In this document: positions 249-30,828 of the stretch, piece by piece
Numbering within the stretch: the first letter of the stretch is position 1
Layout: the number at the start of each line of letters is the position of its first letter
NCBI GenBank assembly: GCA_035649395.1
Contig: DASRJR010000174.1
Span: 94,878 to 158,877 of the forward strand
Direction: 5' to 3'
Source of the DNA: Vicinamibacterales bacterium
GTDB taxonomy: Bacteria > Acidobacteriota > Vicinamibacteria > Vicinamibacterales > UBA2999
DNA length: 64,000 nt
Translations under genes and position numbers: made by a program
The notes under the pieces: generated by a model
The model's database searches: none
The model's input: only the letters and a program-made list of their open reading frames with translations
Told to the model about the DNA's origin: nothing

Positions 249-250
249 GC

Positions 251-469: not shown

Positions 470-615
470 AAGCGCTCAAGTGAGGCCGTGTGTGACGGCC
501 CGAGTAATGTGTCCACGGGTCCCCAACACGGAGACCCTCTCAGTGACCTTCAAAGCCTGTATCGGCTGGAGCCTACTGATCCTTAGGCGCCCTTGTGTCA
601 ATATGTTGGCGCCCC

Positions 616-1989: not shown

Positions 1990-1992
1990 TCG

Positions 1993-2798: not shown

Positions 2799-2820
2799 TG
2801 CGAGATGTGATCGGACTAGT

Positions 2821-4017: not shown

Positions 4018-4323
4018 CGCGACGTCTTCTCCAATTCTCAGATAATGAGGTCGGGAATAAGTCTGCCTTTTTGGAGAGACTAAGGTCAACGGTAAAGTCG
4101 CAAAAAGTGCCATCAAAGATCACGTTTTTGCGCAGAATTCTCGTAAACCAGGAACTAAAGCCGGCACATTAGATGTGGGCTTGAGCCCTATAGATCTATT
4201 TTTCAGTCACTTACAGTTTGTGATTGGCGAAACGCCGTCTGTCTAACTCCGAAGTACGAAATTTGTTATCGGGAGCGCACGCAGAGGACACGTCCGCGTC
4301 GACTGTCACAGGGCGGGCAAAGA

Positions 4324-4343
4324 TTTCTCGAATTGGCGAGAAA
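4324..4343 (-). terminator. candidate hairpin just after the GGDEF gene stop
   Basis: The minus strand reads TTTCTCG-CCAATT-CGAGAAA followed by TCTTTGCC. This is a 7-bp stem with only a modest U tract. Confidence 0.3.
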
Positions 4344-4351
4344 ACTGAGCG

Positions 4352-5773
4352 CTAGGCCGGCCTGACGGTGCCGTCCGGCCCGGTTGTGCTGACGCGATTC
4401 TTGCCGGCGCGCTTGGCGTGATACAGCGCGCGATCGGCGCGTTCGATCAGATCTCGCGCGGTCACACCGGGCGGCGACACCGCGACTCCAATGCTTGCCG
4501 TCACGTGGAGCGACGCGAGATCGGGCTCACTCCGCTGGTAGGCCTCGACGCGCTGCCGGATGCGTTCGGCGATCGTCCCCGCGCTCTCCGCGTTGCCACC
4601 AGGCATCATCACCGCGAACTCCTCGCCGCCGAAACGCGTGCACACATCGAAGATGCGCACAGAGCGTCGGAGGATTTCAGAGATGTCGCGGATCACCATG
4701 TCGCCAGCGATGTGTCCGAAGCGATCGTTGATGCTCTTGAATCCATCGAGGTCGACCATGAGCAACGCGACTGATGTTGCTTGTCGAATCGCGCGATGAA
4801 GTTCTTCCTCGAGGCGCGCTTGAAAGTATCGTCGGTTGAAGAGACCGCTCACGGGATCGATCACGGCCGCCTGCGCGTACGCTTGCGCCTCGCGCCACAC
4901 GCGCTCGCGACCGAGCGCAATGGCAACAGGCGCGAGCAACGTCCGCACCGCTGCGACGTCATCGTGCGTGTAGGGCCCCTCGGCAATGCGATCGGTCAGC
5001 GAGAGCACACCGAGCGCATCGGTGCCCGCGACGATCGGGACAACGGCAAACGAGTTCGTGCGATAACGCGAGCGTCGTCGCTCACGTCCGGCGGTTGCCG
5101 ACACATCGGCGACCAGAAGTGGAAGCCGCGATTGAAATACAGTGCCGATGACACCAGCGCCCGGCGCGATTCGCAGATGTTCGACGAGCGCGCGTGGGTA
5201 TCCGTACGTCGACACGATCGACAGTTCACCCTCGGGCGTGGCGACGGCGAGCGACGCCATCCGACTCGGCACCGCCTGCACCACGTGCTGGAGCACGACG
5301 TCGGCAACAGATGCGAGTCCGGTCGTATCTGCGAGCGCGCGTGTCAGTCGATGCGTCAACACGTCGACCGAAAGCGTCGCGACCGGTTCCGGCTCGTGTC
5401 CCGCCAGCAGGCTGTGCCCGAGCTCGCGCAACACGGGGGCTGATTGAGTCCAGTTGCCTTCGATCACGAGAAACACCGGCGAGCGCGGCGCCGTGGCAAG
5501 GCTCACGAGTGTCCACTCGACATCCCCCGTGGTCCAGACACCGATCCCGAGATCCGGTTCGGCACTGAGGCGATCGAACGTGTGCGACTCACCATTCATC
5601 GGGACCGCGAGGATCGGATCGGGCCGCGATTCGGCTGCAAGCACCCACACGCCGCCATGCTTGCCCGCCACCGCGGCCTTCGCGTCGATGATGCGATCGA
5701 TCAGGTTGACCAGCTGCTGGAGAAAGGCGCGTGGGCCGGCGTTCTCGGGTACGCGCTGATACACCCGTAGCAA
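4352..5773 (-). CDS. diguanylate cyclase, GAF-GGDEF, with intact active site and I-site
   Basis: A GAF-like segment is followed by DPVSGLFNRRYF...LLMVDLDGFKSINDRFGHIAGD...RIFDVCTRFGGEEFAVMM. RIFD lies 5 residues before GGEEF, which is the RxxD I-site position. Confidence 0.9.
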   Translation of the reverse strand: MLRVYQRVPENAGPRAFLQQLVNLIDRIIDAKAAVAGKHGGVWVLAAESRPDPILAVPMNGESHTFDRLSAEPDLGIGVWTTGDVEWTLVSLATAPRSPVFLVIEGNWTQSAPVLRELGHSLLAGHEPEPVATLSVDVLTHRLTRALADTTGLASVADVVLQHVVQAVPSRMASLAVATPEGELSIVSTYGYPRALVEHLRIAPGAGVIGTVFQSRLPLLVADVSATAGRERRRSRYRTNSFAVVPIVAGTDALGVLSLTDRIAEGPYTHDDVAAVRTLLAPVAIALGRERVWREAQAYAQAAVIDPVSGLFNRRYFQARLEEELHRAIRQATSVALLMVDLDGFKSINDRFGHIAGDMVIRDISEILRRSVRIFDVCTRFGGEEFAVMMPGGNAESAGTIAERIRQRVEAYQRSEPDLASLHVTASIGVAVSPPGVTARDLIERADRALYHAKRAGKNRVSTTGPDGTVRPA

Positions 5774-5965
5774 CGCGAGCCGTTGCTCAGGAGAGAGGGC
5801 GCGAGGACCAGCCGCCGGCAGCCGTGGGTGTGGGTTCGCCAGTTGAAATCCCTTGTCGAGGAGACATTCCCCCGCGTTTGGGAATCCTGCTTCACCGCTC
5901 TGAACCGCGCGATCACCTTTTCAGGCGCAGTCCAGTAGGGTTATTGATCACTGCCAGCTGAGCTG

Positions 5966-5980
5966 GCAACAAGCGTGCCT
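5966..5980 (-). promoter_or_regulatory. sigma-54 promoter-like motif P1 (upstream of the GGDEF gene)
   Basis: The minus strand reads aGGCACG-CTTG-TTGC against the consensus TGGCACG-N4-TTGC, with correct spacing. It lies about 190 nt upstream of start 5773. Confidence 0.5.
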
Positions 5981-6098
5981 TACACAAAACTGCAAAGGCC
6001 TGTAACTGTTGAGTGACGTCTGGGATATGGCGGTCGCCCCCGGCCGAGGCGACTCGCCATGTCGGATGTGGGACCAGTGACCTGCGCTTGGCCTGAGC

Positions 6099-7214
6099 TT
6101 AGCGGTATTCCTTGAACGGGATCTGGCAGTCGTGCTTCCGCAGGAAGTTCAAAAAGCGCTTGTAGTCGCGGGCCTCCATGTTGAACAACCGCGCCACGAT
6201 CTTATAGTTCCCGCGAGCCTCTTCGAGTCCGCGTCGCACCACCTCGCGCACGTTTGCGCGCGTGATTTCGCGATCCATGAACAGCGGATACACCGCGGTC
6301 CAGAACGACTCGTGCTGCTCGATCATTCGTTTGTAGAGATCGTCGGCAACCGTCCGTCGTCGCTCGCGCTTCGGACGAAGCAGCACTGCGTCGTAAGAGC
6401 GGATCTCGGAAGACAGATGCTCGACTTCGATCGTGGGTCCCGAGACGGTGACGACGAGTCGTTCGATGACGTTCTCGAGCTCGCGCACGTTGCCCGGCCA
6501 CGAGTATTCCGAGAGGGCCTTCATCGCTTCGGGCGAAATGGCGGTGATGTGACCGCGGTTCCCCGAGAACTGCGCCAGGAATTCGTTCGCGAGTACCGGG
6601 ATGTCTTCGCGGCGGTCGCGCAACGGTGGCACGACGATGTGAATCACGTTCAGCCGATAGAACAAGTCCTCACGGAAGGTGCCCTGCTTGATCATTTCGC
6701 GGAGATCGCGGTTCGTGGCTGCGATCACGCGAACGTTGACGATGCGGCCACTCCCATCGGCACCGACCTTCTGGATCTCGCCAGTCTCGAGAAAACGAAG
6801 CAGTAGCCCTTGCATTCGCAGCGTCATCTCGCCGACTTCGTCGAGGAAGATCGTGCCCATGTGGGCAGTCTCGAGCTTGCCGGGCTTGTCGCGATACGCT
6901 CCCGTGAAACTCCCCTTGACGTGGCCGAACAACTCAGATTCGAGCAACGTTTCCGGCAGGCCGGCGCAATTGACCGGCGCGAAGACGTGCCCGGCCCGAG
7001 GGCCGCGCGAGTGAATGGCGCGGGCGACGATTTCCTTGCCGACGCCGCTCTCCCCGGTGATCAACACCTTGGCGTCGGAACGCGCGACGCGATCGATCTC
7101 CTGCTCGAGCGCGGCGACCTCGGCACTGCGGCCGGTCAACTGAACATGAGACCGCGGGCGTAGCGCGCCGACCGGGCTTACGCGATGAGAGGTCTCAGCA
7201 ACACCATCAATCAT
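6099..7214 (-). CDS. sigma-54-interacting activator (bEBP-2), PspF-like, no sensory domain
   Basis: GESGVGKE, GSFTGAYRDKPGK, SWPGNVREL, and C-terminal SFWTAVYPLFMDREITR...RGNYKIVARLFNMEARDYKRFLNFLRKH. ATG 7214 overlaps the stop of the upstream PilZ gene. Confidence 0.9.
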   Translation of the reverse strand: MIDGVAETSHRVSPVGALRPRSHVQLTGRSAEVAALEQEIDRVARSDAKVLITGESGVGKEIVARAIHSRGPRAGHVFAPVNCAGLPETLLESELFGHVKGSFTGAYRDKPGKLETAHMGTIFLDEVGEMTLRMQGLLLRFLETGEIQKVGADGSGRIVNVRVIAATNRDLREMIKQGTFREDLFYRLNVIHIVVPPLRDRREDIPVLANEFLAQFSGNRGHITAISPEAMKALSEYSWPGNVRELENVIERLVVTVSGPTIEVEHLSSEIRSYDAVLLRPKRERRRTVADDLYKRMIEQHESFWTAVYPLFMDREITRANVREVVRRGLEEARGNYKIVARLFNMEARDYKRFLNFLRKHDCQIPFKEYR

Positions 7215-7518
7215 TGTTTATGAACCGTTCAATAAGACGCCGATGCTCCGGCGACATCCCCACGAACGTAGCGCCGATGCGATAACCCGAACCGGCTTCG
7301 GACGGCGTCGACACGCGCTGCACCTGAATGTCCGCCGAGAACGGCGCCCCGGCCAGAGTGAACCGGAGGCTTCCTCGCGCACCCGGATTGAGCAGATGCG
7401 CCGACTGCAGCAACACCCCTGCGGAGCTGATGTCGATCACGCGCACACTCATGTTGGCGGGAAGGTTCACGAACTCGCCGCCGACTTCATGCCGTGGGGA
7501 TCGTCGACGCTCTTCCAT
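7207..7518 (-). CDS. PilZ-domain protein (PilZ-A), canonical c-di-GMP-binding motifs
   Basis: RRSPR matches RxxxR and DISSAG matches DxSxxG. I prefer ATG 7518 because it has GGAGGA 9 nt upstream. The ORF opens at GTG 7575, so the alternative start cannot be excluded. Confidence 0.8.
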   Translation of the reverse strand: MEERRRSPRHEVGGEFVNLPANMSVRVIDISSAGVLLQSAHLLNPGARGSLRFTLAGAPFSADIQVQRVSTPSEAGSGYRIGATFVGMSPEHRRLIERFINND

Positions 7519-7601
7519 CCCTCGAGGTCCTCCGAAAGTGCTCGGAAAGGTACGGAGCCCGGCGCTCTCGCACACGATTTGAGCCTTATGGCGTGACGGG
7601 C

Positions 7602-7617
7602 TGCAAGCAAGTCGCCA
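7602..7617 (-). promoter_or_regulatory. sigma-54 promoter-like motif P2 (upstream of the PilZ-A / bEBP-2 pair)
   Basis: The minus strand reads TGGCGAC-TTGC-TTGCA. The GG and TTGCA elements are at consensus spacing. Confidence 0.5.
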
Positions 7618-7782
7618 TTGTTGGGCAGACCTTTTTCTTCCACGGCAACTTATTACAACGTAATGGCTTATGCCTGAAGGTGGTCCTCAAAGCACAACCG
7701 ATCCGATCCTAGAAAGTCTGGCCGAATCTGGGCTAAGTCACCTGACAGGGAAGACTTTCCGCGCCGTGACGAGACCGGAGTC

Positions 7783-8106
7783 CTACGAGGACGGCCAGTC
7801 GGTGGCGGCAGCGAGCGCCGGAGGTATGGACAAGAACTCGACGCCGACGAGGTACCGGATAGGTTCATCGGGTCCGGAAACTCGCCTGACATGACGCACC
7901 CGGGCGTCCACGGTGATGTCGTGACCGTGTAGCTTCAGGTGGAGAGGCTGGATGGAATCGGGGGGCATGGCCACCGGCGACGTAATCAGTGCTCCATCCC
8001 GGCTGATGTTGACGACTCGCGCGGGCTCGGACAATTCGAGCGTGGCCCAGAGGGCGCCAACGACTTCGAGACGAACGCGCGCACGACGGTCTCCCAACGC
8101 CATCAC
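7783..8106 (-). CDS. PilZ-domain protein (PilZ-B), canonical motifs
   Basis: RARVR matches RxxxR and NISRDG matches NxSxxG. The start (GTG 8106 or ATG 8103) overlaps TGA 8105..8103 of the upstream gene. Confidence 0.8.
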   Translation of the reverse strand: MMALGDRRARVRLEVVGALWATLELSEPARVVNISRDGALITSPVAMPPDSIQPLHLKLHGHDITVDARVRHVRRVSGPDEPIRYLVGVEFLSIPPALAAATDWPSS

Positions 8107-9827
8107 GACCGCCTCCCGTTGCTGAGACCAGAATTCGTGCTCGTTCCCGAGTGCTCACCGCCGAGGGCGTCGGCTCGCGCGTCGCGAACGAGACCATCAG
8201 CACGACCGACCCCTGGTGTTCGACTCGCCACACCGATCAGGATCGATCCGGCCCCGGGCACGCCGCCGACGATCGCGCGCAGCCGGTCAGCGATGCCCTT
8301 CGCATGATGGGTGGTCGTGTCGTGCATCAACAGTCCTATTTCGCCTTCTGCGAGCGTTCCGGCGAGATCCAATGGCCGGAGTTGCCCTCGCATGCCAGCG
8401 ACCCATCGTTGCGTCGCGCCAGGGAAGAACACCGCGTCGCGCACCAGCAGCACGACGACGGTGACCGGAGAGCCGCGCTCGAGAGCCTCCTTGGCCGACC
8501 GCTCAATCACTTCATGGAAACCGCGCGGGGCAGCGCGTCGATCCCGTCCCCCGGCCATGGCGCGGAGTGCAATCGGCGCCCATGCGACAAACATGCTCGC
8601 CGCCGCATTCACCACGTCCTGGTCCCGCGGCGTGAACGGCAGGCTCTCGCTTCGCGCCACGGCGATGGTCGTAGTGTAATGCCGTTCCGATCGCGAGACC
8701 ATCACCAAACGTTCGTCGCTCGACGTGTCGTGCACCCCAGCGCCCGGCGCGGTGACGCGTAATCCGTGGCCGCCGTTACTCGATTCAATCGCAAGCGATG
8801 CCGACGTCCCGCCGACTTCGACTCTCAAGTCGTCGAGCGCTCGCGCTGCGCGGGACTCGATCCGTTCATCGCCATCGGCCAGTCGCCGGCTGATCGCGAC
8901 CATCACGCGAGAAGCCGCTTCGGAGGCTGCCAGGGCGAGCGCGCACTCGAGCAACGCGAGATACGCGCCGAGCCGCTGCACGTCTTGCGCCCCGATCTCG
9001 CCGGTAAACACCAGCAGCCAGGAACGTCCCTCACGCCGCTTGAAGCGTTTGACGTAGACGTCTTCACCAACAGCGAGGCCGAATCGATCGAGGTGGCCCT
9101 GCGGCAGCCGGGTGAGATCGCCGATCTCGGGCAATCCAACCGTCGGGATCGTTGTGGGACGCTCGGTGGTTCTCGTGCCGGGCAGTGTGACGTCGCGCAC
9201 GAACGAGTCGTCGTCGACTTCGATGTATCCCGAGACCTCGATGTCGTGCCAGACGGCGACGGCTTCGCCAAACAGACGCACGAGCTCTCGGTCGGATTCA
9301 CGCTCCGCCGCTTGCGATAGAAGGCGCGCCAGCGGCGCGAGCCGACTGATCCCGCTCGCGTGAAAGGCCGGCGGACTCTGTAAGTGGGCTTCAACCGCAG
9401 TCGACAGCCACGAGCCGACGAGCTGCAGCTGTGCTCGGGATGATTCGGCGTCCTGCGACATCGGCAGCGCCCGGGCAAGGACCAGGACGCCCGGTGAACT
9501 GCGCTCCATCGTCACCGGGAGACAGATGATTTGAAGCCCGTGCAACGCGGTTGATTGGGGTTGACGGGATTGGAGCGCGTTCGAAAGGGCGGAGCGGAGA
9601 ACGGCGTCGCCGGGTTCGAGCAACCCCGACACACTGGGCGTCGCGCCCGCAGCGAACGGAAGCAGCGGCGCGTATCGTTTGTCAACCAACTGCAGATCGA
9701 CCTTGAGACGACGGCGCAATTCGAGCAGCCAGTCCCACGACCGCTCGCGCACCGCCGTTTCGAATGCGGAGGGTTCCTGTGTCACAGGTGATGTGCTGTC
9801 GGTGACGACCATCAGCGGGGCGCACAC
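8103..9827 (-). CDS. large sensory-type protein with a C-terminal degenerate GGDEF domain that retains an RxxD I-site
   Basis: The C-terminus VTVVVLLVRDAVFF...RPLDLAGTLAEGEIGLLMHD...ILIGVASR...DARADAL follows the GGDEF fold pattern. The signature is AEGEI instead of GGDEF, and RPLD lies 5 residues upstream. The N-terminal ~400 aa are unassigned and look GAF-like by eye only. I prefer GTG 9827 because GAGGAAG lies upstream; ATG 9812 is possible. The ORF opens at 10124, inside bEBP-3. Confidence 0.7.
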   Translation of the reverse strand: MCAPLMVVTDSTSPVTQEPSAFETAVRERSWDWLLELRRRLKVDLQLVDKRYAPLLPFAAGATPSVSGLLEPGDAVLRSALSNALQSRQPQSTALHGLQIICLPVTMERSSPGVLVLARALPMSQDAESSRAQLQLVGSWLSTAVEAHLQSPPAFHASGISRLAPLARLLSQAAERESDRELVRLFGEAVAVWHDIEVSGYIEVDDDSFVRDVTLPGTRTTERPTTIPTVGLPEIGDLTRLPQGHLDRFGLAVGEDVYVKRFKRREGRSWLLVFTGEIGAQDVQRLGAYLALLECALALAASEAASRVMVAISRRLADGDERIESRAARALDDLRVEVGGTSASLAIESSNGGHGLRVTAPGAGVHDTSSDERLVMVSRSERHYTTTIAVARSESLPFTPRDQDVVNAAASMFVAWAPIALRAMAGGRDRRAAPRGFHEVIERSAKEALERGSPVTVVVLLVRDAVFFPGATQRWVAGMRGQLRPLDLAGTLAEGEIGLLMHDTTTHHAKGIADRLRAIVGGVPGAGSILIGVASRTPGVGRADGLVRDARADALGGEHSGTSTNSGLSNGRRS

Positions 9828-9862
9828 GAGGACTTCCTCGCCGGGCGCAGCTGTATCGTTGT

Positions 9863-9878
9863 TGCAATCGACCCGCCA
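9863..9878 (-). promoter_or_regulatory. sigma-54 promoter-like motif P3 (upstream of the degenerate GGDEF / PilZ-B pair)
   Basis: The minus strand reads TGGCGGG-TCGA-TTGCA at exact consensus spacing. It is about 37 nt upstream of GTG 9827, with the SD GAGGAAG in between. Confidence 0.55.
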
Positions 9879-10000
9879 GACGGTGTGGCGTCGGTCGCCA
9901 TCGACACATCGACAAATTGGGCCAAAAACGTTGATTCTGCCTGCGGAAAGGACACCGGCTGGCAGACAAAAGCACGAGTATCGCGGACATCCCCGCGGCG

Positions 10001-11176
10001 TCAGCCGACGTGCGCCATCGGCTTGCGCAACGCGGCCTTGGCCGGTAATGGCGGCAGTGCTAAGCGCGGCTGTCGCTGCGGCTGAACCGTGCCATGACGG
10101 AATTCCCTGAAGTCGGCCCCGCATTGATGTGCCGCTAGGAAATTGAGGAAGCGCTTGTAGTCCTGACTCGACATGCCGAAGAGCTTCAGTAACGCGCGGT
10201 AGTTCCCTCGCGTCGTCGTCAGCCCGCGCCTCACCAGTTCCCGCATGTCATGTCGAGTGATGTCCCTGGATAGGAACAGCGGATAGATGTGATCCCAGAA
10301 CGAGTAACCCCCGTGAACCAGCGCTGTATACAGCTCGTCGGAAATCTGGGAGCGGCGCTCGCGCATCGGCAATATCGATTGCGCCGGTACACGTACCGTC
10401 TCCGGGAGGTGCGGCACATCGACGACATCGCCGTGAGACAGCCACATCGCCTGCTCGACGACGTTCTGCAGTTCACGGACATTGCCAGGCCAACGATGGC
10501 GACGAAGGCAGATCATCGCCTCCTCAGTGAAGCGAGCGACGCGCCCAGTCCGCTCGATGAAGTGCGCCACGAGCACCGGAATGTCTTCGCGTCGGTCGCG
10601 CAGCGGCGGCACCTCGACATGAATGACCCGCAACCGGTAAAGGAGATCCTCTCGAAACTGACCCGCTGCAATCAGATCGGCCAGATTTCGATTGGTTGCC
10701 GCAATCACCCGCACGTTGACCGTCGTGACGCGCGTATCGGCTCCGACCGCTTGAATCTCTCCGTTCTCGAGAAACCGCAGCAACATCGCCTGCATGCGCA
10801 GGCTCATCTCACCCACCTCGTCGAGGAAGACCGTGCCCCCATGCGCGGCCTGCAGCTTCCCCGCTTTGTCGCGATACGCGCCGGTGAAGCTGCCCTTCAC
10901 GTGCCCGAACAACTCGGACTCGAGTAACGACTCGGTGAGTCCGGCGCAGTTCACCGGAACATAGGGCTGATTCGCGCGGCGCGATCGGAAGTGAATGCGT
11001 CGCGCGATCAGATCCTTGCCGACACCACTCTCCCCAGTAATGAGCACCTTGCCGTCGGAAATGGCAGCGCGATCCGCCGCGGCAACCAGCGCGTGCATCG
11101 ACGCACTCGCGACGATCAGAGATGAACCGGGACCAAGCGCACTTGGCCCCGGTCCAAGGTGAGAATCGGTCGACAT
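10001..11176 (-). CDS. sigma-54-interacting activator (bEBP-3), PspF-like, no sensory domain
   Basis: GESGVGKD, GSFTGAYRDKAGK, RWPGNVREL, and C-terminal SFWDHIYPLFLSRDITR...RGNYRALLKLFGMSSQDYKRFLNFLAAH. I prefer ATG 11176 (MSTDSH) because GGGAG lies 7 nt upstream. Confidence 0.9.
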   Translation of the reverse strand: MSTDSHLGPGPSALGPGSSLIVASASMHALVAAADRAAISDGKVLITGESGVGKDLIARRIHFRSRRANQPYVPVNCAGLTESLLESELFGHVKGSFTGAYRDKAGKLQAAHGGTVFLDEVGEMSLRMQAMLLRFLENGEIQAVGADTRVTTVNVRVIAATNRNLADLIAAGQFREDLLYRLRVIHVEVPPLRDRREDIPVLVAHFIERTGRVARFTEEAMICLRRHRWPGNVRELQNVVEQAMWLSHGDVVDVPHLPETVRVPAQSILPMRERRSQISDELYTALVHGGYSFWDHIYPLFLSRDITRHDMRELVRRGLTTTRGNYRALLKLFGMSSQDYKRFLNFLAAHQCGADFREFRHGTVQPQRQPRLALPPLPAKAALRKPMAHVG

Positions 11177-11247
11177 CAGTGGCTCCCGTCCACGTATGCT
11201 GCGAGTGTGAAATTCTGTTACCTGCTCAAAGCGGCGCACCTTGAGTC

Positions 11248-11263
11248 AGCAAGTTTCACTCCA
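11248..11263 (-). promoter_or_regulatory. weaker sigma-54 promoter-like motif P4 (upstream of bEBP-3)
   Basis: The minus strand reads TGGAGTG-AAAC-TTGCT. The GG and TTGC spacing is correct, but the -24 element is only TGG. Confidence 0.3.
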
Positions 11264-11413
11264 GCCGGCGATTGCGCGTATTCGCGTCGCGGAGCTCAAT
11301 TCGGCGATCTAGTCCTGGCGAAGGCAGACAATTATCGAGTCCGATTTCGGCGACTCTCGTGAAAGTCTCAGCAGAGTTGTTCACGGCTGGTCAAAGTTCG
11401 ACCTCCGCGCCTG

Positions 11414-11722
11414 CTACGCCCGCCACAACGCCGTCCGGAGACTGTGTGTGCCGGGGGGGTTGGTCCAGAGGAATCGCGCGCCGAGGTGGTAGACCGATCC
11501 GGCGCCGGCAATTGGCTGGCATCTGACGATCTGCACGTCATCGACCAGCTCGCGCCCGTCAATCACGACCCGAATCGAGGCGACGGCACCGACATCGAAC
11601 CGGCGTTCGGTCTCGATCAGGCATCCCGAGGCGCTGCAATTGAGCACCCGCATCTGACAGAGTCGTGTGATGATGCCCAGTCGGTCGGCCGCTGGTGCGT
11701 CGCTACTCCCTTCGTCTCTCAT
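11414..11722 (-). CDS. PilZ-like protein (PilZ-C) with NxSxxG but no clear RxxxR
   Basis: NCSASGCLIE matches (D/N)xSxxG, followed by a beta-rich VVIDGRELV...VYHLGARF. ATG 11722 shares one nt with the upstream stop in a TGATG junction. Confidence 0.6.
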   Translation of the reverse strand: MRDEGSSDAPAADRLGIITRLCQMRVLNCSASGCLIETERRFDVGAVASIRVVIDGRELVDDVQIVRCQPIAGAGSVYHLGARFLWTNPPGTHSLRTALWRA

Positions 11723-12027
11723 CAACGTCGTCCCTGATTCAGCAGATCGCCTTCGTGCTCGTCGATCTGCCGTAACCAAAGGCGATGGCGCACGGCTCCG
11801 TCCGTCATGACAGGTCGGCTCTCGACGACCCTGGCCACGTGTGTGGTGCCGTCGTCGAGTGATTCCACGACAACGGTTTCATCGAGCACACCGGCCTCGC
11901 GGCTCATCGCAATCCACTCGCCCTCTGTCCGTTCGGACAAAACCACATCACGCGTCACCCGCATTACGCCTATAGCGCCATCCGCGATCGTCATTCTCGA
12001 ATAGCTACGCCGCCCCAGCATCCACAC
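11722..12027 (-). CDS. hypothetical small protein, first gene of the PilZ-C pair
   Basis: 101-aa ORF (MWMLGRRSYSRMTIADG...). GAGG lies upstream of the alternative ATG at 12021. No family recognised. Confidence 0.45.
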   Translation of the reverse strand: MWMLGRRSYSRMTIADGAIGVMRVTRDVVLSERTEGEWIAMSREAGVLDETVVVESLDDGTTHVARVVESRPVMTDGAVRHRLWLRQIDEHEGDLLNQGRR

Positions 12028-12066
12028 CTCGACTTCGCACGCACGACAGTGTGCGACAACGTCGCT

Positions 12067-12082
12067 GGCAAGGGCGGTGCCG
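12067..12082 (-). promoter_or_regulatory. sigma-54 promoter-like motif P6 (upstream of the hypothetical / PilZ-C pair)
   Basis: The minus strand reads cGGCACC-GCCC-TTGCc with correct spacing. It lies about 40 nt upstream of start 12027/12021. Confidence 0.5.
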
Positions 12083-12231
12083 CACCGTGCATATCTGAAT
12101 TTCGCCGGTTTGTGCCCGATTTGGAGGGGAGACTCGATCGGCCGGCGAGGTCGGTTCGCGTGCCGCGTTGAGCTTTGTCTGCTGGGGATCAGAATGGGTC
12201 TTGACGACCCTCGAAGCGCGCCGTCGGGGCT

Positions 12232-12588
12232 TTACCGCTTGATCGTGGATAACTTCTCGTTGACGAGGGCCACCAGCGCCGAAGGAGAAATTGGTTTGAC
12301 GACGTAGTCGGCGCCCGCTCGACGAGCCTCGGCCTCAAGAACCTGGTCGGGGAAACCGGTCACGATGATCGTCGGAATTGGACGTGGATTGAGCAGGAGC
12401 AGCTGCAGCCCGTTGAAGCCGCCGAGACGCAGATCGGCGATCACCAGGTCCGGGCTCTCGACTTGAACGGCGTGGCGACCCTCCTGATACGTGCTGGTCG
12501 CGATGACCTCGTGGCCTGCGAGGTTCAGCAGCTCACGATAGCCCGCGCGGGTCGCGTCATCATCCTCAACAATAACGATCTTTGCCAT
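12232..12588 (-). CDS. single-domain CheY-like response regulator
   Basis: MAKIVIVEDDD...DLVIADLRLGGFNGLQLL...IVTGF...YVVKP. It has a receiver domain only. Confidence 0.85.
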   Translation of the reverse strand: MAKIVIVEDDDATRAGYRELLNLAGHEVIATSTYQEGRHAVQVESPDLVIADLRLGGFNGLQLLLLNPRPIPTIIVTGFPDQVLEAEARRAGADYVVKPISPSALVALVNEKLSTIKR

Positions 12589-12815
12589 GAGCGCCTCCCC
12601 GCCCCGCTACGCCGATCTGCGTTCGCACTGCATACCGCCCGATGATAGGCCGATTATGTCTTATGCACACGGTGCGCTCGCACATTGAGTTTTCTGGACC
12701 TGTGCGGTTAGTCCGGAAGATCGAGCGAGCGACATTAGGCCGTTGGCTGTGAATTCATGCGTAATCTCGTGCACTATCGCGTACTCTCGGCGCCTATGGT
12801 GAAGCCACGCCGCAT

Positions 12816-12831
12816 GGGCAGTGGCGTTGCA
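12816..12831 (+). promoter_or_regulatory. sigma-54 promoter-like motif P5 (upstream of PilZ-D / pseudo-PilT)
   Basis: The plus strand reads gGGCAGT-GGCG-TTGCA with correct spacing. The GC is only 16 nt before ATG 12846, so either the mRNA is nearly leaderless or the true start is ATG 12882. Confidence 0.4.
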
Positions 12832-12845
12832 CTCAGTATGGTGTC

Positions 12846-13310
12846 ATGAGCGAGCCGCCTGACGACGAATTCTTCGTGTCCATGCCGGACGGCTCCCTCG
12901 ACGACCTGTTCGCGGGCCTCGAAAAGTCGCTCAAGACCGACCCGTCCGAGCCAGCTGCAGCCGCCACGAGGGAACAGGCGCCGCCAACGGCGGACGCCCC
13001 ACCCGCTCGCGCCGAACGTCGACGCGCGCCGCGACGCGAAGCCCACGAGTTCAAAACGGAACTGCGGCTGGCCGTGGCGGGCTTCCCGATGAAGCTCGTC
13101 AACCTATCGTCCACGGGATTATTGGCCGAAACAAGTCAAAGGTTGTGCCCGGGTCGCACGGTCGATGTTTTCCTGCGATACGGCGGCGTTCGCCGCGTGC
13201 TCCGTGCGACCGTGATTCGATCGTCGATGCACGCCGTCGCACCAACGCCGGTGTTCCGGGCGGCACTTCAGTTCGAAGACACGCTTACCTTGCAGGACGC
13301 TGACTTATGA
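12846..13310 (+). CDS. PilZ-domain protein (PilZ-D) with an acidic/Pro-rich N-terminal extension
   Basis: RRAPR matches RxxxR and NLSSTG matches NxSxxG. The stop overlaps the next start in an ATGA junction at 13307-13310. Confidence 0.8.
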   Translation: MSEPPDDEFFVSMPDGSLDDLFAGLEKSLKTDPSEPAAAATREQAPPTADAPPARAERRRAPRREAHEFKTELRLAVAGFPMKLVNLSSTGLLAETSQRLCPGRTVDVFLRYGGVRRVLRATVIRSSMHAVAPTPVFRAALQFEDTLTLQDADL

Positions 13311-15055
13311 GTTTGCTGCCATCGCTGTGCGCGGCCCTCGAGCGGGCGGGTGGACAACGTCTCATCATGCGGGCCGGTGAACGTCCCCACGTGCTTGCGG
13401 GGGACCGTCGCCACGACGTGGCGACGGCGGTCCTGTCGGTCAATGCCGTCGAAGCGCTCGTCGATCAGATCCTTTCGAGCGACAGCCGCCGTGCCCTCGC
13501 CGAGCGCGGTTCGGTCGAAGAGGTGTTGAATACGCCAGCGTTTCCGCAGCCGCTGACCGCGCGCGCCGAGCGCGTCGGCGACGATTTCTGCGTGGAGTTG
13601 CTCGTGACTACGTCGCAGCCAGAGACAGAACCGGTTCCAGTGAGCAAGCCCGATCATGAACCGCAGCCCGTGGCCGCCATCGAGGAGGTCCCCGCAGACC
13701 TCGCATTGGATGAGGCCGGTCCGCTTCCGGTGACGCCCGTCATCGAGACCTTCCAGGGGTCGCACGAGATCGCGCTCAACGTTGCGTCGCCGACGCCGCG
13801 GGAGACGCCTCGCATTGAACCGCATCCGCCTGTGCGCGTCGTCGCTCGCGTCGAAGAACCGGTCCATAAGCCAACCGTCGTCGCCCGCACCGTGAACGCG
13901 CACACTGATCTTCATGGCTGGATCGCGTACGCGTTCGAGCGCGGGTCGACCACGCTGTTCCTGCGCACGGGTGCCCCGCCTGCCGGCCGCATCAACGAGC
14001 GCATTGCACCGATCAGCGACGAGATCGTCGGTCCCTCTGTCTTCGAAGAGATCGCGTCAATCACGACTCGCGGTGGTGACAGCGCGTGGCGCAGTGTGTC
14101 GGATGGCGAGTGGGCGCGCGATCACGCGGACTTTGGGCACGTTACATGCCGCGCGTTCGACGACGATCAAGGCCAGGGCCTGGTCGTTCACCTGGTTCCA
14201 CGCATCACACCAAAGCTGCTGCACAAGCACATACCCCGCCAGGTGCGCACGGCGTGCGAAGGCGACGGCCTCGTCCTCGTCTCGGCTCAAACTGAAGCCG
14301 AGGTCGCGTCGCTCGCCGCCGCGACGGCAGATTGGAGTGGACGCACCCGTGGCGGATATCTGATCGCGTTGCACCGCCGAGGCGCTCGGACCGAGCTCGC
14401 GGGCGCATTCGTCAGCCAGCGCACGGTGAGCGGCGGCGACGCGGATTTCGCCACAGCGATCCGGCGCGCGGCACACGAGGGACCTGACATTCTGCTTGTG
14501 GTCGGCCCACAAACGGAAACGACGCTTCACGAAGCCGTCCTCGCGGCGGCATCAGGCCGGCTGGTGATCGTCGGAGTGGTCGCGCCGACGGCCACGCAGG
14601 CGTTGCAGACGGTGCTCGGTCACAGCGGACTCGATCGCGACGCCCACGTGCGTCGGGCACTTGCCTCGTCCTTCCGCGTCGCGGTCGGCTATCGAACGCT
14701 GCGGCGGCTGGGTGGGGGACGGATTCTTGTTCAGGACATCGTCACGGCGTCGAAGGACGTCCGCGCGCTGGTTGAAGCCGCCGATTTCAAGGGCCTGACC
14801 GCGTTGATTCGCCGCGGCGTGTCGGGGATGCGCTCGGTCGACGAGGCGCTTGCACGCGCGACCAGACGTCGTCAGGTGTCGCTGCGAGAGGCGGCGGCGC
14901 ATGCCGATGATCGCCGTCAGTTCGTCGCGTTGGTCCGCATGCGCGCACGTGCGAGCCATGGCGCGAGAGCCCGAGACATTCACGGACCGATCTCGCTCGA
15001 CGAACGCAGCAGCGGCCGCGCCGCGAGCGGCGGCAAGCGCGCATCACGCGCCTGA
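13307..15055 (+). CDS. PilT/T2SS-E-fold protein with degenerate ATPase motifs (predicted pseudo-ATPase)
   Basis: The C-terminal half is collinear with PilT: GSTTLFLRTGAPPAGRI, GLVLVSAQTEAEVASLAAAT in place of GLVLVTGPTGSGKST, GPDILLVVGPQTETT in place of DPDIILVGEMRDxET, and SGRLVIVGVVAP in place of TGHLVFxTLHT. No GK[ST] Walker A occurs anywhere in the protein. The N-terminus holds a second PilT-N-like segment and a Pro/Glu-rich linker. Confidence 0.8.
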   Translation: MSLLPSLCAALERAGGQRLIMRAGERPHVLAGDRRHDVATAVLSVNAVEALVDQILSSDSRRALAERGSVEEVLNTPAFPQPLTARAERVGDDFCVELLVTTSQPETEPVPVSKPDHEPQPVAAIEEVPADLALDEAGPLPVTPVIETFQGSHEIALNVASPTPRETPRIEPHPPVRVVARVEEPVHKPTVVARTVNAHTDLHGWIAYAFERGSTTLFLRTGAPPAGRINERIAPISDEIVGPSVFEEIASITTRGGDSAWRSVSDGEWARDHADFGHVTCRAFDDDQGQGLVVHLVPRITPKLLHKHIPRQVRTACEGDGLVLVSAQTEAEVASLAAATADWSGRTRGGYLIALHRRGARTELAGAFVSQRTVSGGDADFATAIRRAAHEGPDILLVVGPQTETTLHEAVLAAASGRLVIVGVVAPTATQALQTVLGHSGLDRDAHVRRALASSFRVAVGYRTLRRLGGGRILVQDIVTASKDVRALVEAADFKGLTALIRRGVSGMRSVDEALARATRRRQVSLREAAAHADDRRQFVALVRMRARASHGARARDIHGPISLDERSSGRAASGGKRASRA

Positions 15056-16159
15056 GCGCACCGCCTCCCACTCCGATTCTGGCGCATTCGGCGGCTTCGC
15101 CGGATGCGCCATGAAAAACTCTTCGACGATCTCGTCCAGCTCCGCGATCCGTTCAGCGCTGTTGACGCGCACGCGAACCTGAGATCCCCCCTCAAGCCCC
15201 TTCGAGTACCACGAGCACAGCGCCCGGAGTTTGTTGATCACCCATCGCTCGTGCCCGCGCGCGGCACGGCTCTCGTGCGCTGCAGCCGGCGTCACGCCAG
15301 AAACGGCCGCCGCGGTAGGCGCGTGATGTCGGAAGCCGTCCGCCTCATCAACGCCTTCTCCCAGCAGCAGCTCGATGTAATCGAGTAAGAACTGGCCGCG
15401 CTCGCGCATCGTCACCACGCGCGGCGTGCGACCTGCGGCCAGGTCGGCGGCCTGCGCAAGAATCCACGGGTTCCGCAAAACCCCGCGACCGACCAGCACG
15501 CCGCTCACGCCAGAAGACAATCGTTCAACGACGTGCTCAGGCTCGACGCAGTCGCCGCTGCCGAAGACCGGGATGCTGAGGGTGTCCGCGATGCGCGCAA
15601 CCAGATCCCAATCCGCCAGCCCGCGATAGGACTGCTCGGCGGTACGGCCGTGAATGGTCACGGCAGCCGCTCCCGCGTCCTGCACCATCTTCGCGAGGAC
15701 GGGAGCATTGCGTTCGCGGTCGCTCCACCCGGCGCGCATCTTCACGGTCACCGGAATCTTCACCGCCTGCGTCATCGCGCGAATCACGCTCGCGGCGTGC
15801 TCCGGCTCGCGCATCAGGCTGCATCCGGCGTTGTGCTTCGCGATCTTGGGGACCGGACATCCCATGTTGACGTCGACGATGTCAGCGCCCATGTCCTCAA
15901 CGATGTGCGCCGCCGCGGCCATCTTCACCGGGTCGCCACCGAAGATCTGCACCGACACCGGGCGTTCTTCCTCGGTGTACTCGGCGTATTCCAGCGTCCG
16001 ATCGATCCCCCGGACGAGACCCTCCGACGACACCATCTCCGTGACGACAAGACCGCAGCCGCCGTGGCGCTTGACCAGGCGGCGAAAGGCCGTGTCTGTC
16101 ATGCCGGCCATCGGCGCGACGCCGTACGGTGCGGGCAGTTCAATCGACCCGATTTTCAT
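15044..16159 (-). CDS. dusB: tRNA-dihydrouridine synthase
   Basis: YGVAPMAGMTDTAFRRLVKRHGGCGLVVTEMVSSEGL...VDVNMGCP...VTVKMRAGW...TIHGRT. Confidence 0.9.
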   Translation of the reverse strand: MKIGSIELPAPYGVAPMAGMTDTAFRRLVKRHGGCGLVVTEMVSSEGLVRGIDRTLEYAEYTEEERPVSVQIFGGDPVKMAAAAHIVEDMGADIVDVNMGCPVPKIAKHNAGCSLMREPEHAASVIRAMTQAVKIPVTVKMRAGWSDRERNAPVLAKMVQDAGAAAVTIHGRTAEQSYRGLADWDLVARIADTLSIPVFGSGDCVEPEHVVERLSSGVSGVLVGRGVLRNPWILAQAADLAAGRTPRVVTMRERGQFLLDYIELLLGEGVDEADGFRHHAPTAAAVSGVTPAAAHESRAARGHERWVINKLRALCSWYSKGLEGGSQVRVRVNSAERIAELDEIVEEFFMAHPAKPPNAPESEWEAVRSGA

Positions 16160-29889: not shown

Positions 29890-29906
29890 GACGTTGTCTC
29901 CTTCCC

Positions 29907-30695: not shown

Positions 30696-30761
30696 TAGGC
30701 CAAATGTGGTTGTGTGCTGGAAAGTTCTTATCTTGCAGGGTTGCGGCGATGACGTCAAGGC

Positions 30762-30777
30762 AGTTTCACGTGAAACG
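30762..30777. other. parS site 1
   Basis: AGTTTCACGTGAAACG has a perfect 14-bp palindromic core GTTTCACGTGAAAC and matches the consensus TGTTTCACGTGAAACA at 14/16. Confidence 0.75.
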
Positions 30778-30823: not shown

Positions 30824-30828
30824 CTTCC

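What the first reader, a model, noticed from the sequence alone, without database searches (positions are those of the whole stretch)
12816..15055. PilZ protein translationally coupled to a PilT-fold pseudo-ATPase
PilZ-D has canonical motifs, and its stop overlaps the start of a 582-aa protein in an ATGA junction at 13307-13310. The C-terminal ~380 aa of that protein are collinear with the twitching-motility ATPase PilT. Every catalytic element is substituted. Walker A GPTGSGKST becomes SAQTEAEVAS. The Asp/Walker B box DPDxILVGEMRD becomes GPDILLVVGPQT. The His box TGHLVxxTLHT becomes SGRLVIVGVVAP. No GK[ST] exists anywhere in the protein. The N-terminus holds an extra PilT-N-like domain and a Pro/Glu-rich linker. 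PilZ-ATPase partnerships are established, for example Xanthomonas PilZ with PilB and FimX. A dedicated dead PilT scaffold paired with a c-di-GMP-competent PilZ is not something I recognise as described. No pilus genes are nearby. It may act as a hexameric signalling scaffold or as a decoy for real PilT/PilB ATPases.
Basis: partly seen in the sequence, partly recalled or inferred. Interest (0 to 1): 0.8.

Follow-up and report, generated by a model that had tools for sequence, protein, structure and literature searches.

The report
Dead PilT-like protein coupled to PilZ
A soil acidobacterium (order Vicinamibacterales) has a conserved two-gene operon that pairs a small PilZ-type c-di-GMP sensor with a relative of the pilus-retraction motor PilT that keeps the motor's fold but has lost every ATP-handling motif, a sensor-plus-dead-motor pairing I could not find described.

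Summary
ORF 12846-13310 is a PilZ protein with invariant RxxxR and NxSxxG motifs. Its stop overlaps (ATGA, 13307-13310) the start of a 582-aa protein (13307-15055).

Residues 197-550 of that protein have the PilT/PilU sequence and fold. Walker A, Asp box, Walker B/catalytic Glu and His box are all replaced. Residues 1-103 are a second PilT N-terminal domain, joined by a disordered Pro/Glu-rich linker.

It is not an artefact or a decaying gene. Over 120 full-length homologues carry the same substitutions, and dN/dS on the folded domains is 0.03-0.17. The 35 fully degenerate representatives form one clean clade, down to 34% identity. A larger sister clade has the same architecture with Walker A mostly intact, and its upstream partner is not a PilZ.

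The PilZ partner abuts the gene in the window, in 13/13 Vicinamibacterales genomes and in 5 deeper metagenomic lineages. A sigma-54-type promoter sits 16 nt before the PilZ start.

The surroundings are a c-di-GMP/sigma-54 signalling cluster next to oriC, not a mobile island. No pilus genes lie within 64 kb.

A c-di-GMP-controlled, non-catalytic scaffold or competitor of PilT-type motors is inferred, not shown. I rate it a new variant of a known kind, with moderate to high interest.

The parts
12817..12830 (+). Sigma-54-type -24/-12 promoter element GGCAGTGGCGTTGC, 16 nt upstream of the PilZ ATG. This implies a near-leaderless transcript.
   Evidence: The exact pattern GGCA-N6-TTGC occurs only 5 times in the 64 kb (2.1 expected). 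The same element lies at -27 to -33 of the PilZ ATG as a strict match in 8/13 related loci and in the deeply diverged L023. A TTGA variant occurs in 4 loci and GGTA..TTGC in L017. Function not tested.
12846..13310 (+). PilZ-D: a stand-alone 154-aa PilZ-domain protein, made of a conserved N-terminal LDDLFAGLE motif, a Pro/Ala-rich spacer and the PilZ domain.
   Evidence: Pfam PilZ 24.1 bits against a gathering score of 22.5. There are 694 homologues; the best 120 are all 147-201 aa and all carry RxxxR...NxSxxG.
12894..12923 (+). Conserved N-terminal motif SLDDLFAGLE of PilZ-D (res 17-26), a candidate docking helix.
   Evidence: D19, L21 and L25 are invariant across 8 homologues at 35-75% identity. 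An L[DE]xLxxxL[ED] motif is present in 109 of 120 homologues. Its role is inferred.
13020..13034 (+). RxxxR c-di-GMP-binding motif (R59-R63).
   Evidence: Invariant in alignments A2 and A5. Coordinates.
13101..13118 (+). [D/N]xSxxG c-di-GMP-binding motif (N86-G91, NLSSTG).
   Evidence: N86, S88 and G91 are invariant. All 120 homologues have NLS(S/A)(T/S)G.
13294..13310 (+). Translational-coupling junction: a Shine-Dalgarno-like AGGA (13294-13297) inside the PilZ gene, then the ATGA stop/start overlap (13307-13310).
   Evidence: GCAGGACGC...ATGA is conserved in 13/13 related loci. In deeper relatives the genes overlap by 4 or 1 nt or are separated by 4-6 nt.
13307..15055 (+). The 582-aa PilT-derived pseudo-ATPase (whole gene).
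13307..13615 (+). N1 (res 1-103): a duplicated PilT N-terminal domain and the most conserved part of the protein.
   Evidence: AlphaFold model pLDDT 93.6. The top 29 Foldseek hits are all PilT/PilU N-domains, TM 0.79-0.87, rmsd 1.5-2.1 A. The profile hits Thermus PilT2 res 15-80 at E=5e-4. dN/dS is 0.03-0.09.
13616..13894 (+). Pro/Glu-rich disordered linker (res 104-196), variable in length and sequence.
   Evidence: pLDDT <50. Heavily gapped in alignment A1. dN/dS is 0.21-0.39.
13895..14206 (+). N2 (res 197-300): the canonical PilT N-terminal domain.
   Evidence: Aligned to PilT/PilU N-domains. dN/dS is 0.04-0.17.
14207..14956 (+). RecA-like C-terminal domain of PilT type (res 301-550), lacking all nucleotide-handling motifs.
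   Evidence: Matches the Aquifex PilT C-domain 2eyu at TM 0.82, rmsd 3.2 A. dN/dS is 0.03-0.10.
14282..14308 (+). Walker A relic SAQTEAEVA (res 326-334), aligned to GPTGSGKST. The Lys position is Glu332.
   Evidence: The family consensus is VSAPTEAAVESLA.
14360..14389 (+). Asp-box relic LIALHRRGAR (res 352-361), aligned to IITIEDPIEY.
14474..14515 (+). Walker B relic HEGPDILLVVGPQT (res 390-403), aligned to REDPDVIFVGEMRD. The catalytic Glu position is Gly400.
14552..14590 (+). His-box relic SGRLVIVGVVAPT (res 416-428), aligned to TGHLVFGTLHT. Both His are lost.
12232..12588 (-). Context: a divergently transcribed receiver-only response regulator.
   Evidence: Pfam Response_reg E=5e-17. Present in 13/13 related loci at 83-97% identity, the most conserved gene of the neighbourhood.
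8103..10124 (-). Context: a 673-aa protein with a weak GAF match and a degenerate GGDEF domain (AEGEI) that keeps an RxxD I-site (RPLD). It is a candidate c-di-GMP receptor. A homologue lies on the opposite strand upstream of the PilZ gene in the distant relatives L015 and L023 and in 12/13 close loci.
   Evidence: PDB diguanylate cyclase 8wcn, E=0.003, RPLD aligned to RPLD.

Best explanation
What it is. This is a two-gene operon, probably sigma-54-dependent. The first gene encodes a small PilZ receptor with intact c-di-GMP-binding motifs. The second gene is translationally coupled to it and encodes a PilT-derived pseudo-ATPase. That protein consists of a free, highly conserved extra PilT N-domain (N1), a ~90-residue disordered linker, and a complete PilT N-domain plus RecA-like C-domain. 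Walker A, Asp box, Walker B/catalytic Glu and His box were all lost, apparently in a single ancient event (monophyly was tested on an unrooted tree).

Shown:
- The fold and the motif loss.
- Long-term purifying selection.
- Monophyly of the degenerate clade.
- Conserved adjacency and coupling with PilZ.
- A conserved promoter element.
- A c-di-GMP/sigma-54 gene neighbourhood.

Inferred mechanism. The two proteins are made together and form a complex. c-di-GMP binding to PilZ changes what the dead PilT-like module can bind or how it assembles. The module cannot hydrolyse ATP, so it acts through binding alone. It would use the PilT surfaces it still has, namely the N-domain/C-domain packing interfaces and the tethered N1 domain. 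Through these it could form a ring-like scaffold. Alternatively it could occupy or poison the binding sites of active PilT-family motors, either a canonical PilT/PilB or the Walker-A-intact sister-clade ATPase. Either way, c-di-GMP level would be converted into on/off control of a PilT-type machine.
For: Homology and fold: TIGR01420 E=1.3e-29, end to end. PDB PilU/PilT at 2e-21 to 2e-19. Foldseek 6e-20, with the C-domain at TM 0.82.

Motif loss; no P-loop in any frame.

Not an artefact or pseudogene: more than 120 full-length homologues at 54-99% identity carry the same degenerate motifs. dN/dS is 0.03-0.17 in the folded domains.

Single deep clade: 35 degenerate representatives form one bipartition with no Walker-A-bearing member inside it. 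Core identity to the window protein goes down to 34%. The sister clade has the same N1-linker-core architecture with GPRxSGK(S/R)T.

N1 is a PilT N-domain.

PilZ pairing: 13/13 Vicinamibacterales loci share the identical ATGA junction. L015, L016, L017/18, L023 and L024/25 also have the partner, with R59, R63, N86, S88 and G91 invariant. All 120 of the best PilZ-D homologues carry both motifs. The sister clade's upstream partner is unrelated to PilZ.

c-di-GMP and sigma-54 context: the window holds four sigma-54 activators, a GAF-GGDEF cyclase, four PilZ-motif ORFs and a degenerate GGDEF protein with an I-site. L023 repeats this context and adds a REC-HD gene. The PilZ-less subclade lies beside a REC-PAS-GGDEF-EAL gene in both loci examined.

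Promoter.
Against: - No direct evidence for a PilZ/pseudo-PilT complex, for oligomerisation, or for any target.
- No Rosetta-stone fusion among the 120 best PilZ-D homologues.
- No pilus, secretion or competence genes in the 64 kb or in the flanks of related loci. A link to type IV pili therefore rests on ancestry alone.
- The active sister clade is not next to pilus genes either, so the ancestral function of this family may not be pilus retraction.
- Whether these genomes encode a canonical PilT/PilB or a sister-clade paralogue could not be checked.
- The Pfam PilZ score is marginal (24.1 against 22.5). The PilZ fold was not modelled, and the PilZ-D profile finds no solved PilZ structure by sequence.
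- N1 and the linker also exist in the sister clade, so they are not adaptations to PilZ.
Confidence: 0.45

Rival explanations
1. The pair is a transcription-signalling module and has nothing to do with pili. In this reading, PilZ plus the dead PilT-like protein form a c-di-GMP-responsive scaffold or anti-activator. It would act on the neighbouring sigma-54 enhancer-binding proteins (hexameric AAA+ ATPases), the receiver-only response regulator, or the GAF/degenerate-GGDEF protein.
For: The conserved neighbours are regulators, not pilus genes. The window holds four sigma-54 activators, three further PilZ-motif ORFs, a GAF-GGDEF cyclase and a degenerate GGDEF protein with an I-site. The GAF-like protein and an activator recur next to the pair in distant relatives (L015, L023). 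The divergently transcribed response regulator is 83-97% identical across 13 genomes. The operon itself carries a sigma-54-type promoter.
Against: Adjacency among the close relatives may only reflect shared ancestry within one order. No precedent was found for a PilT-fold protein acting on sigma-54 activators. The PilZ-less subclade (L014, L026) has no activator nearby. Being a target of sigma-54 regulation does not make the pair a regulator of it.
Confidence: 0.25
2. The protein is still a nucleotide-binding or nucleotide-hydrolysing enzyme that uses a non-canonical site. Alternatively it has become a direct receptor for another ligand, such as c-di-GMP itself, in the remodelled pocket.
For: The remodelled segments are themselves conserved (VSAPxxADVxxM, RGGY, GAFVSxR), and many Arg residues are invariant. 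From general knowledge, c-di-GMP binds some ATPases at or near their nucleotide sites, for example FleQ and FliI/HrcN.
Against: All four motifs are lost together, and acidic residues replace the P-loop Gly-Lys. No P-loop exists anywhere in the protein. A dedicated c-di-GMP receptor is already encoded immediately upstream.
Confidence: 0.1
3. It is an artefact, a decaying pseudogene, or only a chance resemblance to PilT.
For: Pfam T2SSE does not hit the protein. The NCBIfam score is far below the family cut-off (103.5 against 319.1).
Against: Full-length alignments to PilT/PilU reach E=2e-21 and the fold match reaches 6e-20. Hundreds of independent metagenomic and MAG copies have intact reading frames and the same motifs. 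dN/dS is 0.03-0.17.
Confidence: 0.02

Closest known systems
PilT/PilU type IVa pilus retraction ATPases (NCBIfam TIGR01420; PDB 2ewv, 3jvv, 5fl3, 6ojx, 9n32)
   Same: Collinear N-domain plus RecA-like C-domain, alignable over the full length of PilT. The C-terminal helical region and an AIRNLIRE-like segment (KDVRALVEA) are retained. There is no GSPII domain and no zinc-binding Cys motif, so it is PilT-like rather than PilB-like.
   Different: Walker A, Asp box, Walker B/catalytic Glu and His box are all lost. An extra N-terminal PilT N-domain and a ~90-residue disordered linker are present. The scores fall far below the family cut-offs. The gene is not linked to pilus genes.
Uncharacterised sister clade of long PilT-like ATPases (N1 domain, Pro/Ala/Glu-rich or coiled-coil linker, PilT core; 500-1236 aa; metagenomic representatives such as P0164-P0270)
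   Same: The same three-part architecture and a recognisably homologous N1 domain, with 25-32% core identity.
   Different: The sister clade mostly keeps GPRxSGK(S/R)T, the Asp-box Glu and an acidic Walker B, and it is hit by Pfam T2SSE. Its conserved upstream partner is an unrelated ~145-aa protein, not a PilZ.
PilB-PilZ-FimX complex of Xanthomonas and Pseudomonas (PMC8389850; review PMC11656802)
   Same: A small PilZ-family protein partnered with a PilT-superfamily ATPase-fold protein, linked to c-di-GMP signalling. In the PilZ-less subclade the neighbour has the REC-PAS-GGDEF-EAL architecture that FimX also has.
   Different: That PilZ lacks the c-di-GMP motifs and does not bind the nucleotide. 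Its partner is the active extension ATPase PilB, bound through its N1D. Here the PilZ has both motifs and the partner is a dead PilT-type protein. The REC-PAS-GGDEF-EAL neighbours have intact GGDEF and EAL motifs.
PilZ-type brakes and clutches on motors (YcgR, FlgZ, MotI for the flagellum) and c-di-GMP-binding traffic ATPases (MshE/PilF MshEN domains; PMC4624772, PMC11731258)
   Same: The logic of coupling c-di-GMP to a motor-class protein, either through a PilZ adaptor or through a domain on the ATPase.
   Different: In those systems the target is an active motor. Here the PilZ partner is itself catalytically dead, and no MshEN motif is present. The comparison to YcgR, FlgZ and MotI rests on general knowledge, not on a test made here.

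Membership tests
PilT/PilU retraction ATPase (TIGR01420 / Pfam T2SSE PF00437) | Two-domain fold: a PAS-like N-domain plus a RecA-like C-domain, collinear with PilT | tested here: met
   (profile positions 2-341 of 343; Foldseek 6e-20; C-domain TM 0.82).
PilT/PilU retraction ATPase (TIGR01420 / Pfam T2SSE PF00437) | Walker A P-loop GPTGSGKST | tested here: not met
   SAQTEAEVA at res 326-334. No [AG]xxxxGK[ST] in any frame.
PilT/PilU retraction ATPase (TIGR01420 / Pfam T2SSE PF00437) | Asp box (EDPIE), Walker B with the catalytic Glu (VGEMRD) and His box (TGHLVxxTLHT) | tested here: not met
   HRRGA, VVGPQT and SGRLVIVGVVA respectively.
PilT/PilU retraction ATPase (TIGR01420 / Pfam T2SSE PF00437) | Score above the curated family cut-off | tested here: not met
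   TIGR01420 scores 103.5 bits against a cut-off of 319.1. There is no Pfam T2SSE hit at E<=0.1.
PilT/PilU retraction ATPase (TIGR01420 / Pfam T2SSE PF00437) | AIRNLIRE motif | tested here: inconclusive
   The aligned segment is KDVRALVEA (res 483-491), which keeps only the (I/V)R and L positions.
PilT/PilU retraction ATPase (TIGR01420 / Pfam T2SSE PF00437) | Hexamer formation and pilus retraction activity | not testable with these tools
   Only single-chain prediction was available. No genetics or biochemistry could be done.
PilZ domain c-di-GMP receptors (Pfam PF07238) | Profile score above the gathering threshold | tested here: met
   24.1 bits against 22.5, which is marginal. Distant orthologues score 20.0 and 13.6 bits or give no hit.
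PilZ domain c-di-GMP receptors (Pfam PF07238) | RxxxR and [D/N]xSxxG motifs about 20-30 residues apart | tested here: met
   R59-R63 and N86-G91 are invariant in A2 and A5 and present in 120 of 120 homologues.
PilZ domain c-di-GMP receptors (Pfam PF07238) | Beta-barrel PilZ fold | not tested
The PilZ-D profile finds no solved PilZ structure by sequence.
PilZ domain c-di-GMP receptors (Pfam PF07238) | Binds c-di-GMP | not testable with these tools
   Requires DRaCALA, ITC or a similar assay.
PilB-PilZ-FimX type regulatory complex | A non-c-di-GMP-binding (type II) PilZ bound to the N1D of an active PilB, with a FimX partner | tested here: not met
   The PilZ here has both binding motifs. The partner is PilT-like and lacks all nucleotide-handling motifs. 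No FimX-like gene is in the window. Definition taken from PMC11656802.
Sigma-54-dependent promoter | GG-N10-GC (-24/-12) element close to the consensus TGGCAC-N5-TTGC, correctly oriented upstream of the operon and conserved | tested here: met
   GGCAGTGGCGTTGC at 12817-12830. Positional conservation across loci is shown. Activity was not tested.

The most novel reading that the evidence does not exclude
The pair could be a previously unrecognised kind of c-di-GMP effector: a PilZ receptor that controls a catalytically dead, ring-forming PilT paralogue. The tethered spare N-domain of that paralogue would dock onto active PilT-family motors, or onto their platform, and act as a reversible brake or decoy. 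In that case a whole clade of 'PilT' annotations in Acidobacteriota would be regulators rather than motors, and motor poisoning by a pseudo-ATPase would be a new way of controlling type IV pilus-like machines.
Probability: 0.3. Interest if true: 0.8.

Novelty: new variant of a known kind. Interest (0 to 1): 0.6.

Why it matters
PilT-family ATPases are studied as motors. Here a deep, strongly conserved clade has given up ATP hydrolysis yet kept the fold. The same clade acquired a dedicated PilZ partner with the motifs needed to bind c-di-GMP. That points to a non-catalytic, signalling use of the motor scaffold.

If confirmed, it would add a new class of c-di-GMP effector complex. It would also correct automatic 'PilT' annotations in Vicinamibacterales and related soil Acidobacteriota. 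The comparison is naturally controlled: dead clade with PilZ, dead clade beside a GGDEF-EAL gene, and active sister clade with another partner. This offers a way to ask how PilT-type rings are regulated.

The operon also sits in an unusually dense sigma-54/c-di-GMP signalling cluster next to the replication origin of a poorly studied, abundant soil lineage.

Tried and rejected
- Frameshift or sequencing error hiding a P-loop: rejected. No P-loop in six frames, and hundreds of independent copies carry the same motifs.
- Decaying pseudogene: rejected by dN/dS.
- Internal sequence similarity of N1 to N2: hhalign was only weak (E=0.14, though in register). The question was settled by the N1 profile against the PDB and by an N1 model with Foldseek.
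- Rosetta-stone PilZ/PilT fusions: none among the 120 best PilZ-D homologues, all 147-201 aa.
- The sister-clade upstream partner as a cryptic PilZ: rejected (hhalign probability 0.1%; no Pfam hit).
- PilZ-D profile against solved structures: no PilZ hit.
- Sigma-70 promoter and terminator scan of 12200-15400: nothing useful.
- The loose sigma-54 pattern with 2 mismatches is not enriched window-wide (48 found, 58 expected). Only the strict core pattern and its positional conservation are informative.
- Riboswitch or other known RNA in 11900-13000: none.
- Literature searches for a Walker-A-less PilT, a PilT pseudoenzyme, PilZ with PilT, and Acidobacteria: nothing relevant.
- Not possible: the taxonomy of the deeper degenerate members and of the sister clade, and the presence of active PilT/PilB in the same genomes.


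Full report
**Observation.** 12846..13310 (+) encodes 154 aa and 13307..15055 (+) encodes 582 aa, and they overlap in ATGA at 13307-13310. The first in-frame start is the ATG at 12846.

The small protein passes the Pfam PilZ gathering score, though only just (24.1 against 22.5 bits). It carries RxxxR (R59-R63) and NxSxxG (N86-G91) 22 residues apart.

The large protein has no Pfam hit, not even T2SSE, yet its homology to PilT is not in doubt:
- NCBIfam TIGR01420 aligns residues 202-536 to profile positions 2-341 of 343 at E=1.3e-29.
- phmmer against PDB sequences gives P. aeruginosa PilU 9n32 at 2e-21 and Aquifex PilT 2gsz/2ewv at 2e-19, all end to end.
- An AlphaFold model (pLDDT 72, and over 80 in most of the folded domains) matches PilU, PilT2 and PilT4 at 6e-20 to 1e-16. 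It matches the isolated Aquifex PilT C-domain at TM 0.82 and 3.2 A.

**Motif loss.** I read the substitutions from the HMMER alignment to Aquifex PilT:
- Walker A GPTGSGKST is SAQTEAEVA (res 326-334). The Lys position is Glu332.
- The Asp box IEDPIE is LHRRGA.
- Walker B with the catalytic Glu, DPDVIFVGEMRD, is GPDILLVVGPQT. The Glu position is Gly400.
- The His box TGHLVFGTLHT is SGRLVIVGVVA.

No [AG]xxxxGK[ST] exists in any of the six frames of 12800-15100, so a frameshift cannot rescue a P-loop.

**Extra N-terminal domain.** Residues 1-103 (N1) have the same secondary-structure order as residues 197-300. A profile of diverse N1 sequences hits the N-domain of Thermus PilT2 (res 15-80, E=5e-4). 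An N1-only model (pLDDT 93.6) finds only PilT/PilU N-domains among its top 29 hits, at TM 0.79-0.87 and rmsd 1.5-2.1 A. Residues 104-196 are Pro/Glu-rich, variable and predicted to be disordered.

**It is a real, selected gene family.** A word-indexed search found 270 relatives. The best 120 are all full-length and 54-99% identical, and all come from metagenomes or MAGs. The degenerate motifs are conserved across them (consensus VSAPTEAAVESLA, ISLQRRSLR, HEGPDILLVTGPQTE, GRLVIVAVVAPT), and N1 is the most conserved region.

Thirteen GTDB species genomes carry the gene, all labelled Vicinamibacterales, Vicinamibacteria or Acidobacteriota. The peptide patterns used for that scan only reach close relatives.

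Pairwise dN/dS among these genes is 0.03-0.09 for N1, 0.04-0.17 for N2, 0.03-0.10 for the C-domain and 0.21-0.39 for the linker. That is purifying selection on all folded parts.

**Wider family.** An exhaustive profile search of 1.84 billion cluster representatives gave 4843 hits, 204 of them at E<=1e-30. I aligned the best 150 to the core model.

The top ~45 all lack every nucleotide motif. From about E=1e-60 downward a much larger sister group appears. It has the same architecture: a homologous N1, a long Pro/Ala/Glu-rich or coiled-coil linker and a PilT core, for 500-1236 aa in total. It mostly has an intact GPRxSGK(S/R)T, an Asp-box Glu and an acidic Walker B.

In a neighbour-joining tree of 129 core sequences, the 35 fully degenerate representatives form one bipartition with no Walker-A-bearing member inside it. 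Their core identity to the window protein ranges from 34% to 61%, against 25-32% for the sister clade. The tree is unrooted, but this pattern fits a single old loss. A few sister members show independent, partial erosion (GSDKST, GSGRST).

**The PilZ partner.** In all 13 related genomes a PilZ-D orthologue (67-75% identity) ends exactly at the start of the pseudo-ATPase gene. The junction GCAGGACGC-N7-ATGA, with its Shine-Dalgarno-like AGGA, is conserved in 13/13.

Five deeper degenerate lineages also have a small upstream gene. These are P0125/L015, P0132/L016, P0155/L017-18, P0128/L023 and P0124/L024-25, at 37-46% identity. The upstream gene overlaps the pseudo-ATPase gene by 4 or 1 nt or lies 4-6 nt away. 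All are PilZ-D homologues (35-50% identity) with R59, R63, N86, S88 and G91 invariant, and they share an N-terminal LDxLxxxLE motif.

The 120 best PilZ-D homologues, out of 694, are all stand-alone proteins of 147-201 aa. All of them carry both motifs, and none is fused to anything.

The pairing is specific to the degenerate clade. In the Walker-A-intact sister clade (L019-L022) the conserved upstream gene is an unrelated ~145-aa protein with no Pfam hit (hhalign probability 0.1%).

The most divergent degenerate subclade (VISAPFAEDV type; L014, L026) has no PilZ. In both loci it lies beside a histidine-kinase-like gene and a REC-PAS-GGDEF-EAL gene whose GGDEF and EAL motifs are intact.

**Context and expression.** The window lies next to the replication origin region: dnaN, gyrB, gyrA, parAB, mnmG, mnmE and yidC. 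It contains no pilus genes.

Positions 1-12600 form a dense signalling cluster:
- four sigma-54 activators;
- a GAF-GGDEF cyclase;
- three more ORFs with PilZ motifs (7210-7686, 7786-8154 and 11417-11878, all on the minus strand);
- a receiver-only response regulator transcribed divergently from PilZ-D;
- a 673-aa protein whose C-terminus is a degenerate GGDEF domain (AEGEI) with a retained RxxD I-site.

The response regulator is the best-conserved neighbour (83-97% identity). A homologue of the GAF/degenerate-GGDEF protein lies on the opposite strand upstream of the PilZ gene even in the distant L015 and L023. L023 also has an activator, a GAF-GGDEF gene and a REC-HD gene.

Sixteen nucleotides before the PilZ-D ATG lies GGCAGTGGCGTTGC (12817-12830), a -24/-12 sigma-54-type element. 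The strict core pattern occurs five times in 64 kb against 2.1 expected. Two of the other hits are correctly oriented in intergenic regions of the same cluster: 12068-12081 (-) and 5966-5979 (-).

At the equivalent position, -27 to -33 from the ATG, the strict element is present in 8/13 related loci and in L023. A TTGA variant occurs in four loci and GGTA..TTGC in L017. This suggests sigma-54-dependent, nearly leaderless transcription, with the second gene relying on translational coupling. That conclusion is inferred from sequence only.

**Mechanism.** Shown: a conserved operon of a PilZ with both c-di-GMP-binding motifs and a PilT-fold protein that has lost all four nucleotide-handling motifs and so is very unlikely to bind or hydrolyse nucleotide in the canonical way.

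Inferred: the two proteins form a complex and c-di-GMP controls it. The dead module then works by binding. It could use the retained PilT N-domain/C-domain packing surfaces and its tethered spare N-domain either to build a ring-like scaffold or to compete with active PilT-family motors. I give this about 0.45 overall. The identity part is near certain and the mechanistic part is about one in three.

The main rival, at 0.25, is a role inside the local sigma-54/c-di-GMP transcription network with no motor target. A non-canonical ligand-binding role (0.1) and artefact or pseudogene (0.02) are less likely.

**Comparison with known systems.** By fold and ancestry it is a PilT/PilU relative. It fails the family's defining catalytic features and score cut-offs, so it should not be filed as a PilT ATPase.

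The PilB-PilZ-FimX complex is the nearest known PilZ/traffic-ATPase partnership. It differs in every specific: that PilZ does not bind c-di-GMP, and its partner is an active PilB bound through its N1D (PMC11656802; PMC8389850). I found no paper describing a Walker-A-less PilT or a PilZ/dead-PilT pair.

**Verdict.** It is a new variant of a known kind. Interest is 0.6: a clear, conserved and testable pseudo-ATPase/PilZ module in an understudied soil phylum, with its target still unknown.

Noticed in passing
window 8103-10124 (-): The C-terminus of this 673-aa protein (weak GAF match) aligns to diguanylate cyclase GGDEF domains. The active-site motif is degenerate (AEGEI) but an RxxD I-site (RPLD) is kept, so it is a candidate c-di-GMP receptor. 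Homologues lie near the PilZ/pseudo-PilT pair in 12/13 close loci and in the distant L015 and L023.
   Followed up: partly
window 7210-7686 (-), 7786-8154 (-), 11417-11878 (-); activators at 595-1989 (+), 2821-4116 (-), 6099-7214 (-), 10001-11239 (-): Three further small ORFs with RxxxR...[DN]xSxxG motifs lie directly upstream of sigma-54 activators that have no Pfam-detectable N-terminal sensory domain or HTH_8 domain. This suggests that PilZ proteins may control these activators in trans. A PilZ-like ORF followed by an activator recurs in all the related loci.
   Followed up: partly
window 12232-12588 (-): The receiver-only response regulator divergent from the operon is 83-97% identical across 13 genomes whose neighbouring genes are only 50-80% identical. 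That is unusually strong conservation.
   Followed up: no
window 12640-12662: The block CGATGATAGGCCGATTATGTCTT in the intergenic region between the response regulator and PilZ is conserved in 13 of 14 sequences, although its surroundings are poorly conserved. There is no Rfam match. It may be an operator or a promoter element.
   Followed up: partly
window 12068-12081 (-) and 5966-5979 (-): Two more exact GGCA-N6-TTGC sigma-54-type elements. One lies 40 nt upstream of the small ORF that starts at 12027 (-). The other is upstream of the GAF-GGDEF cyclase gene that starts at 5773 (-).
   Followed up: partly
L019 6582-7010, L020 7436-7870, L021 7439-7897 (and a convergent ~142-aa gene downstream in each): The Walker-A-intact sister-clade ATPases have their own conserved partner of ~145 aa with no Pfam match (motifs ADYNFISNE and MLQYLRTERIVPPYQ). 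This is an uncharacterised two-gene module in its own right.
   Followed up: partly
L014 3048-6371 (+); L026 7139-10397 (-): The PilZ-less degenerate subclade is flanked in both loci by an HATPase_c gene and a REC-PAS-GGDEF-EAL gene. That gene has a FimX-like architecture, but its GGDEF and EAL motifs are intact. L026 also carries a second, N1-less copy of the pseudo-PilT core at about 10749-11799 (-).
   Followed up: partly
window 29020-46053: The window spans the origin-proximal gene set (parB, parA, mnmG, mnmE, yidC, dnaN, gyrB, gyrA). The signalling cluster is therefore core chromosome close to oriC, not a mobile island.
   Followed up: yes
L012 and L013 (pseudo-PilT gene at 8001 onward): In two MAGs the gene is broken into two tblastn segments, with a premature stop at codon 164 in L012 and codon 314 in L013. 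This probably reflects long-read assembly frameshifts rather than real pseudogenes.
   Followed up: no
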